Source: Ostreococcus lucimarinus | Taxonomy: Eukaryota | DNA length: 64,000 nt | Reading direction: 5' to 3' (one strand) | Assembly (NCBI GenBank): GCA_000092065.1 | Contig: CP000593.1 | Shown here: positions 10,496 through 60,741 of the stretch, one piece after another | How the letters are laid out: every line of letters begins with the position of its first letter | How positions within the stretch are numbered: position 1 is the first letter of the stretch | Program-made: the position numbers and the translations under genes | Notes under the pieces: generated by a model | What the model saw: the letters and a program-made list of their open reading frames with translations, nothing else | The model's database searches: none | Told to the model about the DNA's origin: nothing

Positions 10496-11378
10496 ATGAG
10501 CGCGCAGGCGACGCGAGATCAGCTGCGGACGGCGTTCGCGGAGTTAGAGTGCGTCGCGCGATGCGATGGGATGGGATTCGAGCGACGCGAGCGACGCGAC
10601 GAGACGGAATACGCGCGAGGGACGGGACTGACGGAGCGAGCTCGCGACGCGTCGGCGCAGGGACGGATTCAAGCGTAAGGACGTTCTCGAGAGCCGCGAG
10701 ACGTCGGTGTCGAGCGGACACTTGAAAAAGTTGACCAATAAAATGGCGGAGAGTAAAAAGCTGATCAAGGAGTTTGAGAGACGGGCGCTGAGCGAAGGGG
10801 CCATGGACGCGAACGCGTTGGCGGCGGCGAAGAAGGAATACGTGTCGAGGTTGAACAAGTTTGTGCAGATGAAGAAGGAGGCGCAGATTGCGATCGCGGA
10901 GAAACAAGAAGAGAGGAAGAGCGAGGTTGGTAGTCAGGGCGGGGAAGCGAGCACGTCGGGAGGGGTGACGACGTCGACGACGGCTACGTCGACGGCGTTT
11001 ACGTTGCCGGCGTTCCGGCCAAAGCCAAAGGGGGAGATTGTAGAGGATGAGCAGTTGCAACTCATGGAGGCTGGGGATTTGATTGATCACGGTAGGAACG
11101 TCATGGACCAAACGGATAAGAGCATCATGCGAAGCGAAGCGGTGGTTGAGGAGACGATTCAAATAGGGACGCAAACCGCCGAGGCGTTGCGCGGGCAGAC
11201 AAAACAACTGGAGAAAATCGTAGATGATCTCGATGAAATCCACTTTTCGTTGAAAAAGTCGTTTGGCGTGCTGAAGGACATCACCCGTGGGTTAGCGACG
11301 GATAAGTGCATCATGCTCTTGCTCTTTTTGGTCGTCGTCGGCGTAGTTGTGGTCATCATTACGAGGTTCGTGAAGTAG
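10496..11378 (+). CDS. NPSN-type Qb-SNARE (novel plant SNARE family), two exons: join(10496..10548,10661..11378)
   Basis: Exon 2 gives the SNARE motif and tail anchor (DLDEIHFSLKKSFGVLKDITRGLATDKCIMLLLFLVVVG), near-identical in pattern to plant NPSN11 (ELDSIHFSLKKASKLVKEIGRQVATDKCIMAFLFLIVIG). The ORF-track start 10707 lacks the N-terminal helix. Exon 1 (MSAQATRDQLRTAFAEL-E) joins in frame (phase 2) across a 112-nt GTGCGT...GCGCAG intron. Confidence 0.8.
10549..10660 (+). mobile_element. Introner-like element forming the SNARE intron (112 nt)
   Basis: GTGCGTCGCGCGATG...GACGCGAGCGACGCGACGAGACGG...GGGACTGACGGAGCGAGC...GTCGGCGCAG. Shares the donor, the CGACG repeats, the GGGACTGACGG box and the terminus with the other four introns. 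Confidence 0.75.
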
Positions 11379-23011: not shown

Positions 23012-24691
23012 TTACGGTGCGCCTTCGGCGGAGCAAAGGAAAGGATCTAAAGGCTTCCCAAGCGCATACACAATGAAACCAATGTCCTTCAACTTCTGGT
23101 GGTCCAAGATGAGGCGGCCGTCGAACACAAAGGCCGGCTTTTGCATGACGCCATAGATCGCTTCCCAGTCGTACGTCTTGAACTCGTCCCATTCCGTCAT
23201 AATGCACACGGCGTGCGCACCAGTCAAAGACTCAGTGTGAGTCTTGCAGCACGTGATGGATTTCATCGCTTCCTCGCCCATGTCCAACGCGATTTGCGCC
23301 GCAGCAACCTTCGGGTCATAAATATTGAGCTTCGCACCGTCTTCGATGAGGCCGTGACCGACGTCGATAGCCGGAGACTCACGAGTATCACCCGTATCTT
23401 TCTTAAAAGCGTAACCGAGCATTGAAATCTTCTTGCCGCTGATCGTGTTGAACATGGCGGAAATCATGCGCTTGACGAAGCGGCTCTTTTGGTAGTCGTT
23501 CATGCCGACAACGCTGTGCCAGTACTCCGCCACTTCCGGCAAGCCGTGGCACTCACAAATGTATGCCAAGTTTAAGATATCCTTTTGGAAGCACGAGCCA
23601 CCGAAACCGACCGAGGCGTTCAAAAATTTGGAGCCGATACGCGTGTCGGTGCCGATGGCGTGCGAAACTTGCTGGACATCCGCGCCGGTCGCTTCACAAA
23701 GCGCGCTCATGGCGTTGATGGAAGAAATGCGCTGCGCCAAGAATGCGTTCGCAGCGAGCTTTGAGAGCTCGGCAGACCACAAGTTAGCGGTCAGAATGTT
23801 CTCTTTCGGTACCCAGTTGGAGTACACGCCTACGAGCGCGTCCACCGCCGCTTGACCTTTGGCGTTTTCAATCTTACCCCCGATCAACACGCGATCGGGC
23901 GCATCCAAGTCTACAATGGCCGTACCTTCGGCCAAGAATTCTGGGTTGGACAAGATGTCGAATCGCACGCCGTCGTGCGGGCAGTTGCGCTGGAGCACCT
24001 TTTCAATGGCCTCCGCCGTTCGCACGGGCACCGTAGACTTCTCAACGATGATCTTATCACTCTCGGAGCACGCCGCGATGGTGCGCGCCGCCAACTCCCA
24101 GTACGTCAAATCCGCCGCCTTACCTTTTCCTAAACCAGTCTTCTTCGTCGGCGTGTTCACGGAGACGAAAATCATCTCGCAGTCTCGAATAGCCCCTTCG
24201 ACATCCGTCGAAAAGAACAAGTTCTTCCCTCTGCACTCGAACACGATCTCATCCAACCCGGGCTCATAAATCGGCAGCTCGCTCGAGTTCCACGCGTCGA
24301 TCCTCGGCTGCGAGATGTCCACCACCGTGACCGAGATCTGCGGGCACTTCTTCGCGATCATCGCCATCGTCGGCCCGCCCACGTATCCCGCGCCGATGCA
24401 ACATACTGCGTCGTCCCCGAAACCGCGCGCGTCGTCAGTCCTTCGTCCTCGCGCGCCTCCATTCGCACCGTCGCGCGCTCTCCCATCTTTCGCGCCCGTC
24501 CCAACGCTCTCCCGTCGCCGTCGTCGCGTCTCCGGTCGTCGCCGCGTCTCGCGGATGGTTTCCGGACATCTTTCCGACGACCGTCGCGATCGCCCTCGTC
24601 GCGTCGTCTCGCGCGTCGCGTCGTCTCGCGTCGCGTCGCGTCGCGTCGCTCGCGTCGTTCTTCACGCACTCGTCGTGATCGGCCTCGTCAT
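23012..24691 (-). CDS. UGDH: UDP-glucose 6-dehydrogenase, two exons: join(complement(23012..24405),complement(24670..24691))
   Basis: [19 protein letters not shown] catalytic motif and NAD-binding [12 protein letters not shown]. The ORF-track start is a GTG inside the Rossmann motif, with no in-frame ATG upstream. A 22-nt exon 1 (ATG ACG AGG CCG ATC ACG ACG A) plus a phase-1 264-nt intron gives [20 protein letters not shown]. Confidence 0.88.
24406..24669 (-). mobile_element. Introner-like element forming the UGDH intron (264 nt, longest copy)
   Basis: Minus-strand sequence: GTGCGTGAAGAACGACGCGAGCGACGCGACGCGACGCGACGCGAGACGACGCGACGCGCGAGACGACGCG...GGACTGACGACGCGCGCGGTTTCGGGGACGACGCAG. Confidence 0.85.
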
Positions 24692-30778: not shown

Positions 30779-31427
30779 TCACTTCTCGTCCAATTCGTCC
30801 ATCATCTTCTCCAGCTCGCTCGCCGGCATTTCTTCCAAACGCTTTTGCATCACCGCGTTTTCGTACTGTTTAACCATCGTCGAAACGAAACGTCTGAGCG
30901 TCAGTCTTCGGTTCGCGTTTTCTTTCTCCTTCGCGTTTCGTCTCGCGCTCTCGCCTCGTTCGCTTCGCACGCACATCCTTCAACTGCTTCGCGTAAGTCA
31001 TGTCCTTATTGAACACTCGCATGACGTACGACCCCACCCACGCGAGCGTCAATCCGAGCACGAACGTCAACTGCACCGCGTTGCCCGCCTTCGTCGAATC
31101 CATCCCCGCGAACGATTGCAACCCGTAGTACGCCGCGAATCCCGCGCCCGTGACCCCGGTCCCGATCAGCATCACGTCCGCGCGCGTGTACCCGAACGGC
31201 ACGTCGCCTTCATCGTCCGCGGGCGTCGCGCGCGTGCGCGTGGTCTTCCCGACGCGCGGCGATTCCAGCCTTCGCGTCGTCGTCATCGTCTTCGTCGTCG
31301 CGCGCGCGCGCGTCGCGCTCGACCGCGCGGCCGCGAACACGCCGCGCGCGCGTCGCGTCGTCGCGCGTCGCGTCGTCGCGCATCGCGCCGTCGTCGTCGT
31401 CGCGCGCGTCGTCGTCGCGAACGTCAT
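30779..31427 (-). CDS. Small two-TM membrane protein of cyanobacterial/plastid-lineage type (DUF3007-like, tentative), two exons: join(complement(30779..30865),complement(30975..31427))
   Basis: The ORF track splits it into two frames (30870..31427 and 30779..30976). A 109-nt intron with GTGCGT donor, CTGAC branch box and AACAG acceptor joins ...MTYAKQLKD to YENAVMQKRLEEMPASELEKMMDELDEK in phase 0. T/R-rich transit-like N-terminus. Confidence 0.65.
30866..30974 (-). mobile_element. Introner-like element forming the DUF3007-like gene intron (109 nt)
   Basis: Minus-strand sequence: GTGCGTGCGAAGCGAACGAGGCGAGAGCGCGAGACGAAACGCG...GAAGACTGACGCTCAGACGTTTCGTTTCGACGATGGTTAAACAG. Shares GTGCGTGCGA, GCGAACGA, GCGCGAGACGA, GACTGACG and CGATGGT with the other copies. 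Confidence 0.7.
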
Positions 31428-39959: not shown

Positions 39960-40152
39960 GTGCGTGCGATGCGACGCGACGCGACGCGATCGGGCGCGCG
40001 GACGACGCGGACGCGCGCGACGAGACTGCCGCGAATCGATGGAATTCCGAGGACGGTTACTAACCCGACGGAACGAATGAATCGACGCGACGCGACGCGC
40101 GGACGACGCGACGCGGAGGACTGACGACGGTACGAATCGATGGTCATCACAG
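39960..40152 (+). mobile_element. Introner-like element in the 5' region of the acyl-CoA dehydrogenase gene (193 nt)
   Basis: GTGCGTGCGATGCGACGCGACGCGACGCGATCGG...TTACTAAC...GACGCGACGCGACGCGCGGACGACGCGACGCGGAGGACTGACGACGGTACGAATCGATGGTCATCACAG. A possible exon 1 (39915..39959, MTTREPFGEGVPFGD) joins in phase 0 to 40153, 13 codons upstream of ATG 40192. Confidence 0.65.
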
Positions 40153-55701: not shown

Positions 55702-56461
55702 TTAAGCTTTGAACCTTCGAGTCGCGAAAACGAGCGCCTCTACACGCGAAGAATGGTTAGAAACAAACGCCGTTCGACGACGAACGCGCGCGCGCGCGAC
55801 GACAACACACGCACCTTGCACCGACATCGGAAGCTCTGAAATATCGACCGAGATATCTTCCGCGAAGATCGGCAAATCGCACAGCGTGAAGAGCAAATTT
55901 GGTTCCTCTGAGATCGCGTAAATCGTATCCTCGTCGCTCTCCGAAGCCCAAATCCGCGTGATGCACGCTTGCGTGCGCCGTATGCGATCTTCCAAATCGT
56001 CACACATCAACAGTTTCGGACAATCCATCACCATGGCGCTAATCTTTCCCACCTTAAACGCCCCTCGCAGCGTCAACAAGTTCGCCGTCGCCCTCGCGAT
56101 GTCGCACGTCGCCACCTCCGTGCACCGCCCCACGAGCGCGCCCACGTTCATTCCCGGCACCCCTCCCAGCGCGCGCTCCAACCGATCGAACTGCACCATC
56201 AACTTTTCGACGTCTTGAAAGTACGCGTCCCCGATGTACAGCTCCCTCGCCGCGCGCTCCGCGTCGAGCGTTCGCGCGCCCTTCCCCTTCAAAAACTCCT
56301 CCACCCGCACGCACTCGAACGCCGCGCCGCGTCCGTCGCCCGCGTCGAACGTTCGCGCGAGCTCCGCGCGCGCCTGTTCGTTCGCCATTCGCGCGGCCTC
56401 GGCGAGGATCTCTCTCGCTTCGTCGATCGCCGCGCGCAGTTCGTCCTCTCGCATGCGTCCA

Positions 56462-56493
<32 letters not shown>

Positions 56494-56604
56494 CGCGCGC
56501 GCGCGCGCGACGCGCGTCGCTCGACGACCGCCCTTTCGCGCGCGTCGCCTCGCGCGCGCGCGCGTCGGCGCCGCCGCGGCCGCGCGTCCGCGCGCGCGCG
56601 ACAT
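55702..56604 (-). CDS. mTERF-domain protein (organellar transcription termination factor family) with presequence and a poly-Asp tract
   Basis: Repeated mTERF-like modules (GMNVGALVGRCTEVATCDIARATANLLTLRGAFKVGKISAMVMDCPKLLMCDDLEDRIRRTQACITRIW). 11 Asp encoded by (GTC)11 at 56463-56493. The start is ambiguous; candidates are the ATGs complementary to 56604 or 56454. Confidence 0.55.
56463..56493. repeat. (GTC)n/(GAC)n microsatellite encoding poly-Asp
   Basis: gtcgtcgtc... with about 10-11 units. Confidence 0.9.
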
Positions 56605-56677
56605 CGTGCGGCGTCGCGCTTCGCGGCGTCGCACTTCGCGGCGCGCGCGCGGACGATCGACGCGCGCGACGCGCGCC

Positions 56678-58388
56678 ATGGCGAGCGACGCGAGCGAGGG
56701 CGCGAGCGACGCGCCGGGCGCGCCGTCGGCGTACCCCACGAACGCGTCGGCGTACGAGCTGCTCGAGGAGATCGGGCACGGCGTGAGCGCGACGGTGCGC
56801 GCGAGGCGAACGACGCGACGCGACGCGACGCGACGCGACGACGACGCGCGAGACGACGCGCGCGCGATGACGCGAGACGGACGCGGGACTGACGGGCGAG
56901 CGATGGTGTCGGCGCGCGACGCAGGTGTGGCGAGCGCGATGCGCGACGAACGACGAAGTCGTCGCGGTGAAGGTTTTGGATCTCGAGGAACACGAGCCGG
57001 AACACCTGGACGAGATCCGACGCGAGGCGCAGACGATGAGCATGCTGAGTCATCCGAATTTGGTGAAATATTATAGCTCGTTCGTGAACGAGGCGTCGCT
57101 TTGGGTGGTGATGCCGTATCTCGCGGGGGGATCGGCGCTGAATTTGATGAAGTGGTCGCATCCGGGAGGTTTCGAGGAACCCGTCATCGCGTGCATCGTC
57201 AAGGCGGCGCTCAAGGCGCTGGATTACTTTCATCGTAATGGGAATATTCATCGAGACATCAAGGCTGGGAACATTTTGGTGGATGAGAACGGGGCGGTGA
57301 AGCTGGCCGATTTCGGCGTGAGCGCTTCGTGTTGGGGTTCGGGAGGCCGACCGCGGTCGCACCAGACTTTTGTCGGCACGCCGTGCTGGATGGCGCCAGA
57401 GGTGATGGAGCAAGAGAACGGGTACGATTTTCACGCCGACATTTGGTCGCTCGGGATCACGGTGCTGGAGTTGTGCCACGGGCACGCGCCGTTTTCCAAG
57501 TTTCCGCCGATGAAGGTGCTCTTGATGACGCTTCAAAACCCAGCGCCGACGCTCGAAGAGCAACCCGAAGACGGTCGGCATTTCTCTCGCGCCCTTCGCG
57601 AGTTCGTCAGTCTTTGCCTGCAAAAGGATCCGTCCAAGCGCCCGCCGGCGAGCAAGCTTTTGGAGCACAAATTTTTGAAGGAGGCGAAGAAAGCCGATTG
57701 GCTCGCGAAGACGTTGCTCGAAAACATCCCTTCTCTGGGCGATCGCACGCGCATGCTCGCCGAACGCGAGGCGAAACGGCGCGCGGAATCGAACGCCGTG
57801 GGTGAGGCGCAAGCGGAAGCCGCTTCGAACGAAGCTTACAAGCACGGGGTGTCTAATTGGAATTTTGACGTCGACGAATTGAAGGCGCAGGCGGCGGCGA
57901 TGGACGATCCCGCGGTGGCTGAATCCAACGCCATCGCCGCGGCGAACGCGCTCGAAAACATGCACATGGGCGAAAAGAGGAGCATCGAGAAGAAAGGCCG
58001 ATTCGAAATCATCACCGAAGACGCGCCCGAGTCGTCGGCGACGTCGCAAACGGTGCAGCGACGAGGACGGTTTGACATCATCGAGGACAACCAGCGCGGC
58101 AGCCGAAGCACGTCTCCCACGCCCGCGAGCTCACCCGCGCCGGGCGTTTCGCGCACAAAGAAGGCGGTACAAAAAGGTCGATTCACCGTGCACTCCGAAG
58201 CCGGCGCGGACGACATGGGCGTGGATCTACGCTACTTTTCCGAAGTCGCGCAATCCGCCGCCTCCGTCTCCGCCGCCCTCCGCGATCTCTACGCCCAAGC
58301 CCAAGCCCAAGCGACCGCCATCGCCGAGCTTCGCGACGAGAACGCCCGTCTCCGCGCCCGCGTCGCCGAGCTCTCCGAACGCGCCTAG
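56678..58388 (+). CDS. OSR1/SPAK/Fray-like STE20 Ser/Thr kinase, two exons: join(56678..56794,56925..58388)
   Basis: Exon 1 supplies MASD...YELLEEIGHGVSAT (glycine loop). Exon 2 starts with GTG: V-WRARCATNDEVVAVKVLDL..., then HRDIKAGNILVDENGAVKLADFGVS, TFVGTPCWMAPEV, and is collinear with OSR1 through FPPMKVLLMTLQN and CLQKDPSKRP. Phase-0 130-nt intron. Confidence 0.87.
56795..56924 (+). mobile_element. Introner-like element forming the OSR1-like kinase intron (130 nt)
   Basis: GTGCGCGCGAGGCGAACGACGCGACGCGACGCGACGCGACGCGACGACGACGCGCGAGACGACGCGCGCGCGATGACGCGAGACGGACGCGGGACTGACGGGCGAGCGATGGTGTCGGCGCGCGACGCAG. Looks like an internally deleted version of the UGDH copy. Confidence 0.85.
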
Positions 58389-58453
58389 ACGCGCGCTTCA
58401 CATCGACTCTGTAACATCACCCGACGCCGCCTCGCGTCCCGAACCCGTCGTCC

Positions 58454-58801
58454 TCACTCCCCCGGAATCATCTCGTACGACCACCCGCGCGCGCCTCGCG
58501 CCGTCATCCACATCACCGTCGTCGCGTACCCTCCCGCCAGCGCGCACATCCCTCCCACCACCGTCAGCGCCGTCGTCGTCCCTCGCGCCGCGTGCGCGTC
58601 CGCCTCGATCGCGCCCAGCGCGAAGAGCGCGCGCGTCCCGAGCATCGCCGTCCCCAGCGCGAGCAGCGTCGGTCCCAGGCACTTCGTCTTCGTCGGCAGT
58701 CGCGCCCACGCCCGCGCCCGCGCCCGCGCGTCCATCTCGTCGTCGTCGTCGTCGTCGTCCTCGTCCTCGCGCGCGGGATCGCGGAACTGGTCGGCGTGCA
58801 T
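58454..58801 (-). CDS. Candidate small two-TM protein (hypothetical)
   Basis: MHADQFRDPAREDEDDDDDDDEMDARARARAWARLPTKTKCLGPTLLALGTAMLGTRALFALGAI...TTALTVVGGMCALAGGYATTVMWMTARG... GC3-rich codons typical of real genes here. Embedded in an otherwise Arg-rich intergenic stretch. Confidence 0.3.
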   Translation of the reverse strand: MHADQFRDPAREDEDDDDDDDEMDARARARAWARLPTKTKCLGPTLLALGTAMLGTRALFALGAIEADAHAARGTTTALTVVGGMCALAGGYATTVMWMTARGARGWSYEMIPGE

Positions 58802-59298
58802 CGCGCGCGCGCGTCGCTCGACGATCCTGTGCCGCATGCGTCGCGCGCGCGTCGACGACGACGCGCGAATGCGCGGCGCGCGCGCGGGACGGTCGAGCGA
58901 CGCGCGACGCCGCGTCGATCGCGACGCGTCGTCGTCGACGCGCGCGCGAGGCGGTCGTCGACGCGCGGCGCGGTGACGGCCGCGTCGAACGACGTAACAG
59001 CGTTCGTTGTTACGGGCGCGCTTCCCGCGCGCGCGTCGTCGGGGAGGCGAAGCGCCGAAAATAGAAGTCGGCGAAGCGACGCATCGCGACGCATCGCGAC
59101 GCATCGCGACGCGCGGAGAGCGGTGAACGAACGCGATGGAGGGCGAAACGAACGCGAGGACGCGGCGCGCGGTGGAGTGCGTGACTCTGGCGAATCTTCC
59201 GGGGATGATTGGAACGCCGACGGTGCGTCGTCGCGCGCGGATGGCGGCCGTCGCGCGCGCGCGAAGACTCGACTCGAACGACTCACGACGGAGCGTCG

Positions 59299-60741
59299 AT
59301 GCGTCGTCGCGCGCAGGCATCGATGAAACCGAAGACGCAATCGCTGAGTTTTGTGAATGGCTACGCGATTCCTCGAGACTCGGACGGCGAGGTCGATGTG
59401 TTCGACGCGAACGCGTTCGCGGACGCGCCCGCGCGCGGCGAGGCGAAGGCGTACGCGCCCGAGTACGTTAAATTGCACGGGCTCGTCTTGCGATTTAACG
59501 CGTATTTTGATGAAACCGTCGAAAACGGTCAAAAGGAGAGCGCGAGATGCCGGAAATGCGTCATTTACTTTTTCCTCGAGGACGGATCGATCAAAATCAC
59601 GGAACCGCGCGTGGAGAACAGCGGCATGCCCCAAGGCGCGTTTCTCAAGCGTCACGTCGTGCGCGGCGTGACTTTGGGAGATTTAAACGTTGGCAAAGCG
59701 GTAACGATCTACGGGTTCGAGTTTAAAATTTATCGCTGCGATGGATTCACGCGCGATTACCTCGGACGCGTCGGCGTCGATGTCCCGAATGATGAGCGCG
59801 AACCCGACGGCGTCGGTCCGTCGTGGGAGGAGGTTCGGCTCGCGCGTCGCGCCGCGCGTTCTACGAAGAAGGATGCTCGAGGGAAATTTCTCACGCACGA
59901 CAAGCAAGTGCTTCGCTTCTACTGCGTTTGGGACGACAGGTCGAAATTCGGCGACAGGCGAAGATTTGTTCTGACGTTCTTTCTCATCGACGACACCGTC
60001 GCCATCACCGAAGTCGAAGCGAACAAATCGGGGCGAGGAAGCGGGATGTCTTCGACGCTTCTGCACAGGTCCAGATTACCTCTGCGCGATGAAGATGCGA
60101 ACGCCAGAGGTCTAGCGAACGATGATTTCGATTATGTCACCGCGGAAGACTTGCACGTCGGGGACACGATTCGAGTGTACAAGAGAGATTTCTTCATCTA
60201 CGACTGCGACGAATTCACGAAGTCGTGGTACCTGACGAAATTCCCGGGCGAGTTGACGGAGGCTGCTTTCGAGCCGCACGACGTCACCGAGCCCGAGGAT
60301 ACTGTTCCAGCGCATCGCATACCTGAGCACACAGGTCTCGCCATCGGGAGCGAAGAGGACAGCTTGCAAAACTGCATTTCGCTCATTCCCAAGCCGCCGC
60401 GCAAGGACGTCGCGAAGGATGACGAAATCGTTTTGCAGTTTCGCGCCGAAATGGTCCCGATCAGCGACGCTGATGAAGTGTGCGAATTCGATGCTTCGCG
60501 TCGTTTTGTGGTCTCGTTCCACGTCGGTGACAAGACGTTGTCAATTTTCGAACAAGCGTCAAAGGACAGTTGCTCGAGCAAGTTTCTGGAGCGCGCCAGA
60601 GTCAGGAAGCGCGACGAGACGGGCGCGTTTTACGACTTGCGCGACATGCGCGTGGGTTCGGTGCTCGAAATTCACTCTCGCGCTTTCAAGCTCGGCGAGA
60701 GCGACGAATTCACGCGCAAGTACCTCGAAAACGCGGTGTGA
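59299..60741 (+). CDS. EFHC1/Rib72-like flagellar microtubule inner protein (three DM10 domains, no EF-hand tail)
   Basis: SLSFVNGYAIPRD (cf. human EFHC1 SYRNGYAIVRR). Three DM10 repeats (VLRFNAYFDE...IYFFLEDGSIKITEP, VLRFYCVWDD...FVLTFFLIDDTVAITE, VLQFRAEMVP...FVVSFHVGDKTLSIFEQ). SLQNCISLIPKPPRKDV (cf. SAQNCFALIPKAPKKDV). Confidence 0.85.
   Translation: MRRRAQASMKPKTQSLSFVNGYAIPRDSDGEVDVFDANAFADAPARGEAKAYAPEYVKLHGLVLRFNAYFDETVENGQKESARCRKCVIYFFLEDGSIKITEPRVENSGMPQGAFLKRHVVRGVTLGDLNVGKAVTIYGFEFKIYRCDGFTRDYLGRVGVDVPNDEREPDGVGPSWEEVRLARRAARSTKKDARGKFLTHDKQVLRFYCVWDDRSKFGDRRRFVLTFFLIDDTVAITEVEANKSGRGSGMSSTLLHRSRLPLRDEDANARGLANDDFDYVTAEDLHVGDTIRVYKRDFFIYDCDEFTKSWYLTKFPGELTEAAFEPHDVTEPEDTVPAHRIPEHTGLAIGSEEDSLQNCISLIPKPPRKDVAKDDEIVLQFRAEMVPISDADEVCEFDASRRFVVSFHVGDKTLSIFEQASKDSCSSKFLERARVRKRDETGAFYDLRDMRVGSVLEIHSRAFKLGESDEFTRKYLENAV

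What the first reader, a model, noticed from the sequence alone, without database searches (positions are those of the whole stretch)
56678..56924. OSR1/SPAK-like kinase: glycine loop encoded in a separate exon removed from the ORF track by a 130-nt introner
ORF 56925 starts with GTG at the beta3 strand (VAVKVLDL) and lacks the GxGxxG loop. The ATG at 56678 encodes MASD...YELLEEIGHGVSAT, ending exactly at a GTGCGC donor. The CAG acceptor at 56922-56924 is followed by GTG TGG (V-W). Together these give ...IGHGVSATVWRARCATNDEVVAVK, collinear with OSR1 (IGSGATAVVQAAYCAPKKEKVAIK).
Basis: partly seen in the sequence, partly recalled or inferred. Interest (0 to 1): 0.7.

Follow-up and report, generated by a model that had tools for sequence, protein, structure and literature searches.

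The report
Ordinary intron in algal kinase gene
A 130-base intron really does separate the ATP-binding glycine loop from the rest of an OSR1/SPAK-type kinase gene in the green alga Ostreococcus lucimarinus, but it is an ordinary intron already present in the public gene model, not a mobile "introner".

Summary
The ATG is at 56678. Exon 1 is 56678-56794, the GTGCGC donor is at 56795, the CAG acceptor is at 56922-56924, and exon 2 is 56925-58388. Splicing gives a 526-aa protein with a complete Pkinase domain, and its best solved relatives are SPAK and OSR1.

The window is Ostreococcus lucimarinus CCE9901. The public partial model XP_001420970.1 already contains exactly this junction (…GHGVSAT|VWRARC…). 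Three intron-less sister lineages read straight through the same peptide. Three other lineages have an intron at the identical site. Eight environmental copies keep both exons but have a 125-nt intron.

The "introner" label fails:
- The intron has the canonical Ostreococcus signals (GTGCGC, GACTGACG, CAG).
- Its resemblance to other sequences comes from (GACGC)n low-complexity sequence, which is also found in intergenic DNA.
- Its specific 3′ segment is single-locus in metagenomes.
- Its position is shared by diverged lineages whose intron interiors are unrelated.

The protein belongs to the GCK-VI kinase subgroup but has no CCT domain, so it is the plant (BLUS1-like) type and not a canonical OSR1/SPAK. 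I could not reach any transcript evidence. Verdict: real, ordinary and already annotated, so interest is low.

The parts
56678..56794 (+). Exon 1 (39 codons): start codon, an acidic Ser/Asp-rich N-terminus, then kinase strands beta1-beta2 with the glycine loop IGHGVSAT.
   Evidence: translation; the Pfam profile start moves from position 21 to position 1; orthologue N-termini are collinear; third-codon-position bias 98/67/211; intact in 8 environmental alleles.
56795..56924 (+). Phase-0 spliceosomal intron, 130 nt, 76% GC. It is 125 nt in environmental populations.
   Evidence: GT...AG boundaries, length not a multiple of 3; the public model omits exactly this interval; an intron sits at the same site in L006, L007 and L023; 5-nt length polymorphism.
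56795..56800 (+). 5' splice site GTGCGC. It matches the GTGCG(Y) donor of the other candidate introns in the window.
56800..56867 (+). Pentanucleotide (CGCGA/GACGC)n microsatellite that fills the intron interior. Its copy number varies between strains.
   Evidence: Tandem Repeats Finder reports period 5, 14 copies; one unit fewer in all 8 environmental copies; the same repeat occurs in non-intronic GC-rich islands.
56887..56894 (+). Branch-point motif GACTGACG. The predicted branch A lies about 33 nt upstream of the acceptor.
   Evidence: PMC3879977 gives GACTGACG as the extended branch-point sequence of canonical Ostreococcus introns.
56922..56924 (+). 3' splice site CAG.
56925..58388 (+). 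Exon 2 (487 codons plus stop). It holds beta3 (VAVK) to the end of the kinase domain at about 57677, then a tail with three (K/R)GRFx(I/V) motifs (57999-58010, 58068-58079, 58179-58190) and a C-terminal coiled-coil-like segment.
   Evidence: ORF. (Pkinase, SPAK/OSR1). (motifs); orthologue C-termini end at the same place.

Best explanation
This is the 5' part of a two-exon nuclear gene of Ostreococcus lucimarinus: CDS join(56678..56794, 56925..58388), 526 aa. It encodes a Ste20-type kinase of the GCK-VI subgroup, the group that holds OSR1, SPAK, Fray and BLUS1.

A regular U2-type spliceosomal intron of 130 nt, in phase 0, lies between the Thr codon that ends the glycine loop and the Val-Trp that begins the run into beta3. 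The intron carries the strong signals typical of this intron-poor genus: donor GTGCGC, branch site GACTGACG about 33 nt upstream of the acceptor, and CAG. Its interior is a T-poor (GACGC)n microsatellite of the kind that fills non-coding DNA throughout this genome.

Splicing is needed to make an active kinase. The unspliced message changes frame and stops after 133 codons. The ORF alone has no Met start and no glycine loop.

The intron is old and vertically inherited. It arose after Ostreococcus split from Bathycoccus and has been lost, or was never acquired, in some Ostreococcus lineages. It is not a member of a mobile introner family.

Shown: the anatomy, the junction, conservation, population behaviour and the lack of any repeat family. 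Inferred: actual splicing in vivo, the branch site used, and whether the pattern reflects gain or loss.
For: Gene structure
- Coordinates and frames.
- The Pkinase profile is completed by exon 1 (213.3 vs 197.0 bits; profile 1-263 vs 21-263).
- Gapless alignment across the junction to SPAK (5.9e-94) and OSR1 (3.5e-89).
- The public model P0126 (XP_001420970.1 / XP_001422924.1) reads …EEIGHGVSATVWRARCATNDEVVAVK….

Comparative evidence
- Syntenic orthologues L001, L005 and L008 are uninterrupted ORFs with …GVSA(T/V)VW(R/K)A….
- L006 (117 nt), L007 (154 nt) and L023 (233 nt) have GT-AG introns at the identical codon boundary, each with an ACTGA(C/T) branch motif.
- Bathycoccus (L021) and a Micromonas-like locus (L022) are uninterrupted.

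Population and coding evidence
- Eight environmental O. lucimarinus contigs all have a 125-nt intron. Exon 1 stays at 117 nt in all eight. Exon 2 stays at 487 codons in the seven contigs that span it (L016 ends inside exon 2).
- Exon 1 shows third-codon-position bias.

Against a mobile element
- GACTGACG is the branch motif of canonical Ostreococcus introns: PMC3879977.
- Four other window introns have the same architecture.
- No repeat family: shuffle control. Orthologous intron interiors are unrelated (z about 0). The microsatellite also occurs in intergenic islands. The intron's 20-mer is single-locus.
- No Rfam match and no excess structure.
Against: - I obtained no transcript evidence. 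The spliced-junction 27-mer has no match in the JGI metagenome contigs. Six spliced full-length protein variants are absent from the protein collection. Both negatives are expected if those collections hold genomic DNA and ORF-type gene calls.
- A second in-frame donor (GTGAGC at 56783, giving a 142-nt intron) would delete VSAT. Sequence alone cannot exclude it as a minor isoform.
- The kinase intron does beat shuffles against one other window intron (24406-24669, z=4.25). I attribute this to the shared pentanucleotide repeat.
- Only 64 kb of the genome was examined for copies.
Confidence: 0.92

Rival explanations
1. The intron is an introner: a copy of a mobile, intron-generating element that spread through O. 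lucimarinus genes, as in Micromonas pusilla.
For: - Several window introns share the GTGCG(Y) donor, the GGACTGACG branch site and a T-poor (GACGC)n interior in the sense orientation.
- The kinase intron scores above shuffles against intron 24406-24669 (z=4.25), and weakly above them against 10549-10660 and 39960-40152 (z=2.5 and 2.1).
- Intron presence varies among Ostreococcus lineages.
Against: - The best window hit is no better than dinucleotide shuffles (6 of 60 shuffles do as well or better).
- No alignment reaches both splice boundaries (query 8-94, 20-130 and 1-81).
- The shared part is a pentanucleotide microsatellite. It also occurs in non-intronic GC-rich islands on both strands.
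- Gozashti et al. 2022 explicitly exclude this kind of similarity (PMC9860276). In the supplementary text held here, Ostreococcus appears only in the list of surveyed genomes.
- The intron's non-repetitive 20-mer is found only at this locus (8 contigs) in metagenomes.
- The same site is occupied in four lineages whose intron interiors are unrelated. That points to age, not recent insertion.
- No terminal inverted repeats or convincing target-site duplication were found.
Confidence: 0.04
2. The intron is real, but the main donor is the upstream GTGAGC at 56783 (142-nt intron). That would give …EEIGHG|VWRARC…, without VSAT.
For: This donor is in frame, because 142 and 130 differ by 12 nt. GTGAGC is the donor actually used in lineage L006.
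Against: - All seven Ostreococcus lineages, Bathycoccus, Micromonas and SPAK/OSR1 keep four residues at this place (VSAT, VSAV, VSGV, VSAK, ATAV).
- The same GTGAGC is plain coding sequence in the intron-less species.
- The public model uses 56795.
- GTGCG(Y) is the donor consensus in the window.
Confidence: 0.03
3. There is no splicing. The gene is a 5'-truncated remnant or sequencing artefact, and the product (if any) starts inside ORF 56925-58388.
For: Prokaryote-style gene callers report only the 487-aa ORF (P0001 and P0121). I could find no transcript.
Against: - The ORF's 'start' is a GTG in a eukaryote, and it lacks the glycine loop.
- Exon 1 is under purifying selection and is intact in 8 independent environmental assemblies.
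- The insert has GT…branch…AG signals and differs in length at the same site in other lineages. An artefact would not do this.
Confidence: 0.01

Closest known systems
Public gene model XP_001420970.1 / XP_001422924.1 (ABO99263.1, ABP01283.1), 'predicted protein, partial', Ostreococcus lucimarinus CCE9901
   Same: It is the same locus and uses the same splice junction (…GHGVSAT|VWRARC…). It is identical in sequence to the window's spliced product over its 354 aa.
   Different: The public model is partial at both ends: it starts at GAPSAY and ends at AAAMDD. The model derived here runs from the ATG at 56678 to the stop at 58388 (526 aa). Orthologue N- and C-termini support this.
Human/mouse SPAK (STK39) and OSR1 (OXSR1), GCK-VI Ste20 kinases (PDB 5d9h, 5dbx, 2vwi, 3dak)
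   Same: The kinase domain is the best match by a wide margin (319 and 303 bits against 244 bits for MST3). Shared features are a glycine loop of the GxGxxA type, the VA(V/I)K lysine, HRD, DFG, the T-loop motif TFVGTPCWMAPEV and a conserved post-kinase segment.
   Different: No CCT/PF2 (PF12202) domain is detectable. The tail instead carries three RFx(I/V)-type motifs and a coiled-coil-like end.
BLUS1 and other plant GCK-VI kinases
   Same: They belong to the same Ste20 subgroup (PMC8254492). Land-plant BLUS1-annotated proteins are among the strong hits. They share the architecture of an N-terminal kinase plus a long tail with GRFx(V/I) motifs.
   Different: The algal protein is shorter. I tested no functional equivalence, for example phototropin-dependent phosphorylation.
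Micromonas introner elements (D-IE1/2 in M. pusilla CCMP1545; ABC-IE/IE-C in M. commoda RCC299)
   Same: They are spliceosomal introns in a related Mamiellophyceae genus. IE-C shares the GACTGACG branch motif (PMC3879977).
   Different: Introner elements are defined by high sequence identity among hundreds to thousands of copies (PMC4815162; PMC9860276). This intron has no such copies, and its position is conserved between diverged lineages.

Membership tests
Canonical U2-type spliceosomal intron of Ostreococcus | GT…AG boundaries, with removal restoring a conserved open reading frame | tested here: met
   Removing 56795-56924 joins the two frames and reproduces the peptide seen in intron-less orthologues and in the public model.
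Canonical U2-type spliceosomal intron of Ostreococcus | Extended branch-point motif GACTGACG close to the 3' splice site | tested here: met
   The motif is at 56887-56894, about 33 nt upstream of the CAG. The motif definition is from PMC3879977.
Canonical U2-type spliceosomal intron of Ostreococcus | The interval behaves as non-coding in populations and between species | tested here: met
   A 5-nt indel (130 vs 125 nt) occurs with both exons invariant in length. Lengths are 117, 154 and 233 nt, with unrelated interiors, in other lineages.
Canonical U2-type spliceosomal intron of Ostreococcus | Excision observed in mRNA | not testable with these tools
   I could not reach any RNA-derived sequence. 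The junction 27-mer is absent from the metagenome contigs, and the spliced proteins are not on record.
Introner / introner element | Many introns in unrelated genes of the same genome with high sequence similarity (e.g. at least 4 members; 80% identity over 80% of length) | tested here: not met
   Within 64 kb, the best hit is 81% identity over 89 of 130 nt, no better than shuffles. The intron-specific 20-mer is found only at this locus in metagenomes. A whole-genome test was not possible.
Introner / introner element | Similarity extends to both splice boundaries and is not due to microsatellite or low complexity | tested here: not met
   The alignments cover query positions 8-94, 20-130 and 1-81 only. 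The shared core is (GACGC)n. The criteria are from PMC9860276.
Introner / introner element | Recent, lineage-specific insertion, with the position not shared between diverged lineages | tested here: not met
   The same phase-0 site is occupied in four Ostreococcus lineages that are about 15-20% diverged in protein.
Introner / introner element | Transposon hallmarks (terminal inverted repeats, target-site duplication) | tested here: inconclusive
   Only short CG-rich repeats were found, of the kind expected in low-complexity sequence. GCGCGACG occurs at the end of exon 1 and near the intron's 3' end, but this octamer is common here.
GCK-VI Ste20 kinases (OSR1/SPAK/Fray/BLUS1) | Kinase domain closest to SPAK/OSR1, with intact catalytic motifs and a GxGxxA glycine loop | tested here: met
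   (SPAK 5.9e-94, OSR1 3.5e-89, next best MST3 4.2e-71). The motifs VAVK, HRDIKAGN, DFG and APE are visible in the translation. IGHGVSAT aligns with IGSGATAV.
GCK-VI Ste20 kinases (OSR1/SPAK/Fray/BLUS1) | T-loop threonine equivalent to OSR1 Thr185 / SPAK Thr233 (the numbering is from my own knowledge) | tested here: met
   The alignment places …SHQTFVGTPCWMAPEV… against …VRKTFVGTPCWMAPEV….
Canonical metazoan OSR1/SPAK | C-terminal CCT/PF2 domain (Pfam PF12202) that binds RFx[V/I] motifs | tested here: not met
   There is no PF12202 hit in the whole protein at E<=0.01, nor in residues 294-526 at E<=10. The metazoan hit P0066 does carry PF12202.

The most novel reading that the evidence does not exclude
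The canonical Ostreococcus introns all share GTGCG(Y)…GGACTGACG…CAG and a sense-strand T-poor (GACGC)n interior, and they lie mostly near 5' ends. The kinase intron is one of them. These introns could be the eroded remains of an ancient introner-like burst on the Ostreococcus stem, after the split from Bathycoccus. The kinase gene would then be one of its insertion sites, and later losses would explain the patchy distribution.
Probability: 0.05. Interest if true: 0.5.

Novelty: already known. Interest (0 to 1): 0.1.

Why it matters
Mainly as a calibration point. The biology itself is ordinary, and the public O. lucimarinus model already has the junction.

Two by-products are modestly useful. 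First, there is a complete 526-aa model in place of the partial 354-aa public one. Second, there is a clean example of an intron present in four Ostreococcus lineages and absent from three, and from both outgroup genera. This could serve in studies of intron gain and loss once a robust species tree is available.

If the introner reading had held, it would have extended intron-generating elements to a genus where none are reported. The evidence is against it.

Tried and rejected
- BLAST of the intron against the window gave hundreds of hits on both strands. I rejected these as evidence for a repeat family after the dinucleotide-shuffle control (the first attempt, timed out).
- I searched for direct transcript evidence. 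The spliced-junction 27-mer gave 0 hits in JGI metagenome contigs. Exact look-ups of six spliced protein variants found none on record. These negatives are uninformative, because the positive control shows that the collection holds the genomic, intron-containing locus.
- I tested homology of the introns at the orthologous site in L006 and L007. Local alignment was no better than shuffles, so the apparent similarity in the MAFFT alignment is compositional.
- I tried to decide gain versus loss with neighbour-joining trees: kinase alone and kinase plus DM10. Only L005+L008 and L007+L023 are well supported, and window+L007 gets 79% in the two-gene tree. The deep order is unresolved, so I make no firm claim.
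- I looked for terminal inverted repeats or a target-site duplication. Only CG-rich short repeats were found.
- I checked for a hosted structured RNA. There was no Rfam match and the fold z-score was -0.03.
- I checked for a CCT domain in the tail and found none.

Full report
**1. The observation**

- The ATG is at 56678. Thirty-nine codons follow (MASDASEGASDAPGAPSAYPTNASAYELLEEIGHGVSAT), ending at 56794.
- GTGCGC starts at 56795. CAG is at 56922-56924, followed by GTG TGG.
- The interval is 130 nt and 76% GC. It is not a multiple of three, so exon 1 and ORF 56925-58388 lie in different frames.
- Read without splicing, the message shifts frame and stops after 133 codons.
- The ORF's own upstream frame closes at a TGA at 56868, inside the interval.

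**2. Is it a real exon-intron-exon structure?** Five independent lines say yes.

(a) Domain completion. The joined 526-aa protein matches Pfam Pkinase over profile positions 1-263 at 213.3 bits. The ORF alone matches positions 21-263 at 197.0 bits.

(b) Structural relatives. It aligns without a gap across the junction to SPAK (5d9h, E=5.9e-94) and OSR1 (2vwi, E=3.5e-89).

(c) Public annotation. The window is Ostreococcus lucimarinus CCE9901. Its ORF falls in one 90% cluster with XP_001420970.1 / XP_001422924.1, 'predicted protein, partial'. That model reads …EEIGHGVSATVWRARCATNDEVVAVK…, which is exactly the proposed junction.

(d) Comparative genomics.
- In the same synteny, three sister lineages (L001, L005, L008) have one uninterrupted ORF that reads …GVSA(T/V)VW(R/K)A….
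- Three others have a GT-AG intron at the identical phase-0 boundary, each with an ACTGA(C/T) motif 30-36 nt before the acceptor: L006 at 117 nt, L007 at 154 nt and L023 at 233 nt.
- Across the seven lineages the last 66 nt of exon 1 differ mostly at third codon positions (98/67/211 pairwise differences).

(e) Population data. A scan for the intron's non-repetitive 20-mer found eight environmental contigs of this locus at 98-99% identity.
- All eight carry a 125-nt intron, one GACGC unit shorter than the window's.
- Exon 1 is 117 nt in all eight.
- Exon 2 is 487 codons in the seven contigs that span it.
- A 5-nt indel is tolerated only in sequence that is removed.

I could not obtain direct RNA evidence. 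The spliced-junction 27-mer is absent from the metagenome contigs. Six spliced protein variants are not on record.

**3. Is it an introner?** No.

Introners are defined by many introns in unrelated genes with high similarity that reaches both splice boundaries. Microsatellite and low-complexity similarity is explicitly excluded (PMC4815162; PMC9860276). This intron fails on each count.
- The interior is a pentanucleotide microsatellite, (CGCGA)n with 14 copies.
- BLAST against the window gives hundreds of hits on both strands. The best is 72.5 bits, while dinucleotide shuffles give 65.1±5.3 bits, and 6 of 60 shuffles do as well or better.
- Four other candidate introns in the window share the GTGCG(Y) donor, the GGACTGACG branch site and a T-poor interior: 10549-10660 (+), 24406-24669 (-), 30866-30974 (-) and 39960-40152 (+). 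However, no alignment spans an intron end to end.
- The excess over shuffles against intron 24406-24669 (z=4.25) lies in the (GACGC)n run.
- That repeat is also present in GC-rich islands that are not introns. It occurs in 9 of the 40 islands, and only 3 of those 9 overlap introns.
- The intron-specific 20-mer occurs at no other locus in the metagenome contigs. The three other matches have unrelated flanks.
- Introns at the orthologous site in other lineages share nothing with it beyond composition (z about 0). That fits an old intron whose interior has been randomised, not a recent insertion.
- GACTGACG is the published extended branch-point motif of canonical Ostreococcus introns (PMC3879977, citing Irimia and Roy 2008).
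- In the supplementary text held for the 2022 introner survey, Ostreococcus appears only among the surveyed genomes (that file was cut when stored).
- There are no transposon-type termini, no Rfam match and no excess folding.

**4. History of the intron**

Bathycoccus (L021, 1689 nt for 562 codons plus stop) and a Micromonas-like locus (L022, 1779 nt for 592 codons plus stop) are uninterrupted. The intron therefore postdates the split from Bathycoccus.

Neighbour-joining trees resolve only part of the tree.
- L005+L008 are sisters in 100% of replicates, and L007+L023 in 199 of 200.
- Window+L007 group at 79% in the two-gene tree.
- The four intron-bearing lineages never form a clade (0 of 200).
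- L007+L023 are sister to the rest in 120 of 200 replicates.

This leans weakly towards one gain on the Ostreococcus stem followed by one or two losses. The order of branching is not settled.

**5. What the protein is**

The catalytic motifs are intact: VAVK, HRDIKAGN, DFG and APE. The glycine loop IGHGVSAT has the GxGxxA form also seen in OSR1 and SPAK. The T-loop TFVGTPCWMAPEV is conserved.

BLUS1, SPAK and OSR1 belong to the same GCK-VI subgroup of Ste20 kinases (PMC8254492), and land-plant BLUS1-annotated proteins are strong hits.

The defining CCT/PF2 domain of metazoan OSR1/SPAK is absent. The protein therefore works like a GCK-VI kinase, but it is not a canonical OSR1/SPAK. It is the green-lineage form.

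**6. Verdict**

The gene-structure and kinase-family parts of the interpretation are supported, and the introner label is not. The junction is already in the public annotation. The only addition is a complete 526-aa model in place of the partial 354-aa one. Interest is low.

Noticed in passing
window 57999-58010, 58068-58079, 58179-58190 (protein residues 398, 421, 458): The kinase tail has three conserved (K/R)GRFx(I/V) motifs: KKGRFEII, RRGRFDII and QKGRFTVH. This matches the RFx[V/I] ligand motif of metazoan CCT domains, yet the protein itself has no CCT domain. The motifs are kept in all seven Ostreococcus lineages, Bathycoccus, Micromonas-like, Cymbomonas, Prasinoderma, Klebsormidium, mosses, Selaginella and a legume BLUS1-like protein. 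A 2026 preprint says the partners of the plant WNK CCT-like domain are undefined and that SPAK/OSR1 are absent from plants. A reversed docking polarity is therefore a testable idea: the tail of the GCK-VI kinase would bind the WNK CCT-like domain.
   Followed up: partly
window 10549-10660 (+), 24406-24669 (-), 30866-30974 (-), 39960-40152 (+): These are four further candidate introns with the same architecture: GTGCG(Y) donor, GGACTGACG, then CAG 20-30 nt later, with a T-poor interior. Three of the four follow very short first exons of 7 to about 17 codons, so ORF-based calls will truncate those genes too. I did not verify them against orthologues.
   Followed up: partly
window 58389-59319, compared with L001/L005/L006/L007/L008: Every related Ostreococcus locus has a small ankyrin-repeat gene between the TMEM230-like gene (minus strand) and the DM10-domain gene. 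The window has no tblastn match to it anywhere. The space is filled with 70-77% GC low-complexity DNA. This suggests gene loss or relocation in O. lucimarinus.
   Followed up: partly
whole window: About 26% of the window (40 islands, 16.8 kb) is at least 72% GC, while coding DNA is about 55-60% GC. These low-complexity islands lie between genes, in 5' regions and in introns. Around the kinase gene's start, the A-rich, T-poor strand is the sense strand of each of the two divergent genes.
   Followed up: partly
protein P0126: The identical partial protein is listed under two RefSeq and two GenBank accessions (XP_001420970.1 and XP_001422924.1; ABO99263.1 and ABP01283.1) on two contigs. This suggests the locus is annotated twice, or lies in a duplicated segment of the O. 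lucimarinus assembly.
   Followed up: no
window 56289-58049 (-) and 56054-57043 (-): Long antisense ORFs of 586 and 329 aa overlap the kinase gene and its upstream region. They are Arg-rich products of the GC-rich composition, not genes.
   Followed up: no
L006 4499-4545 (P0008 versus P0005): The 514-aa call P0008 from contig sanbank1 diverges from its close relative P0005 near the C-terminus, in a way that looks like a frameshift in that assembly. I used P0005 for the phylogeny instead.
   Followed up: no
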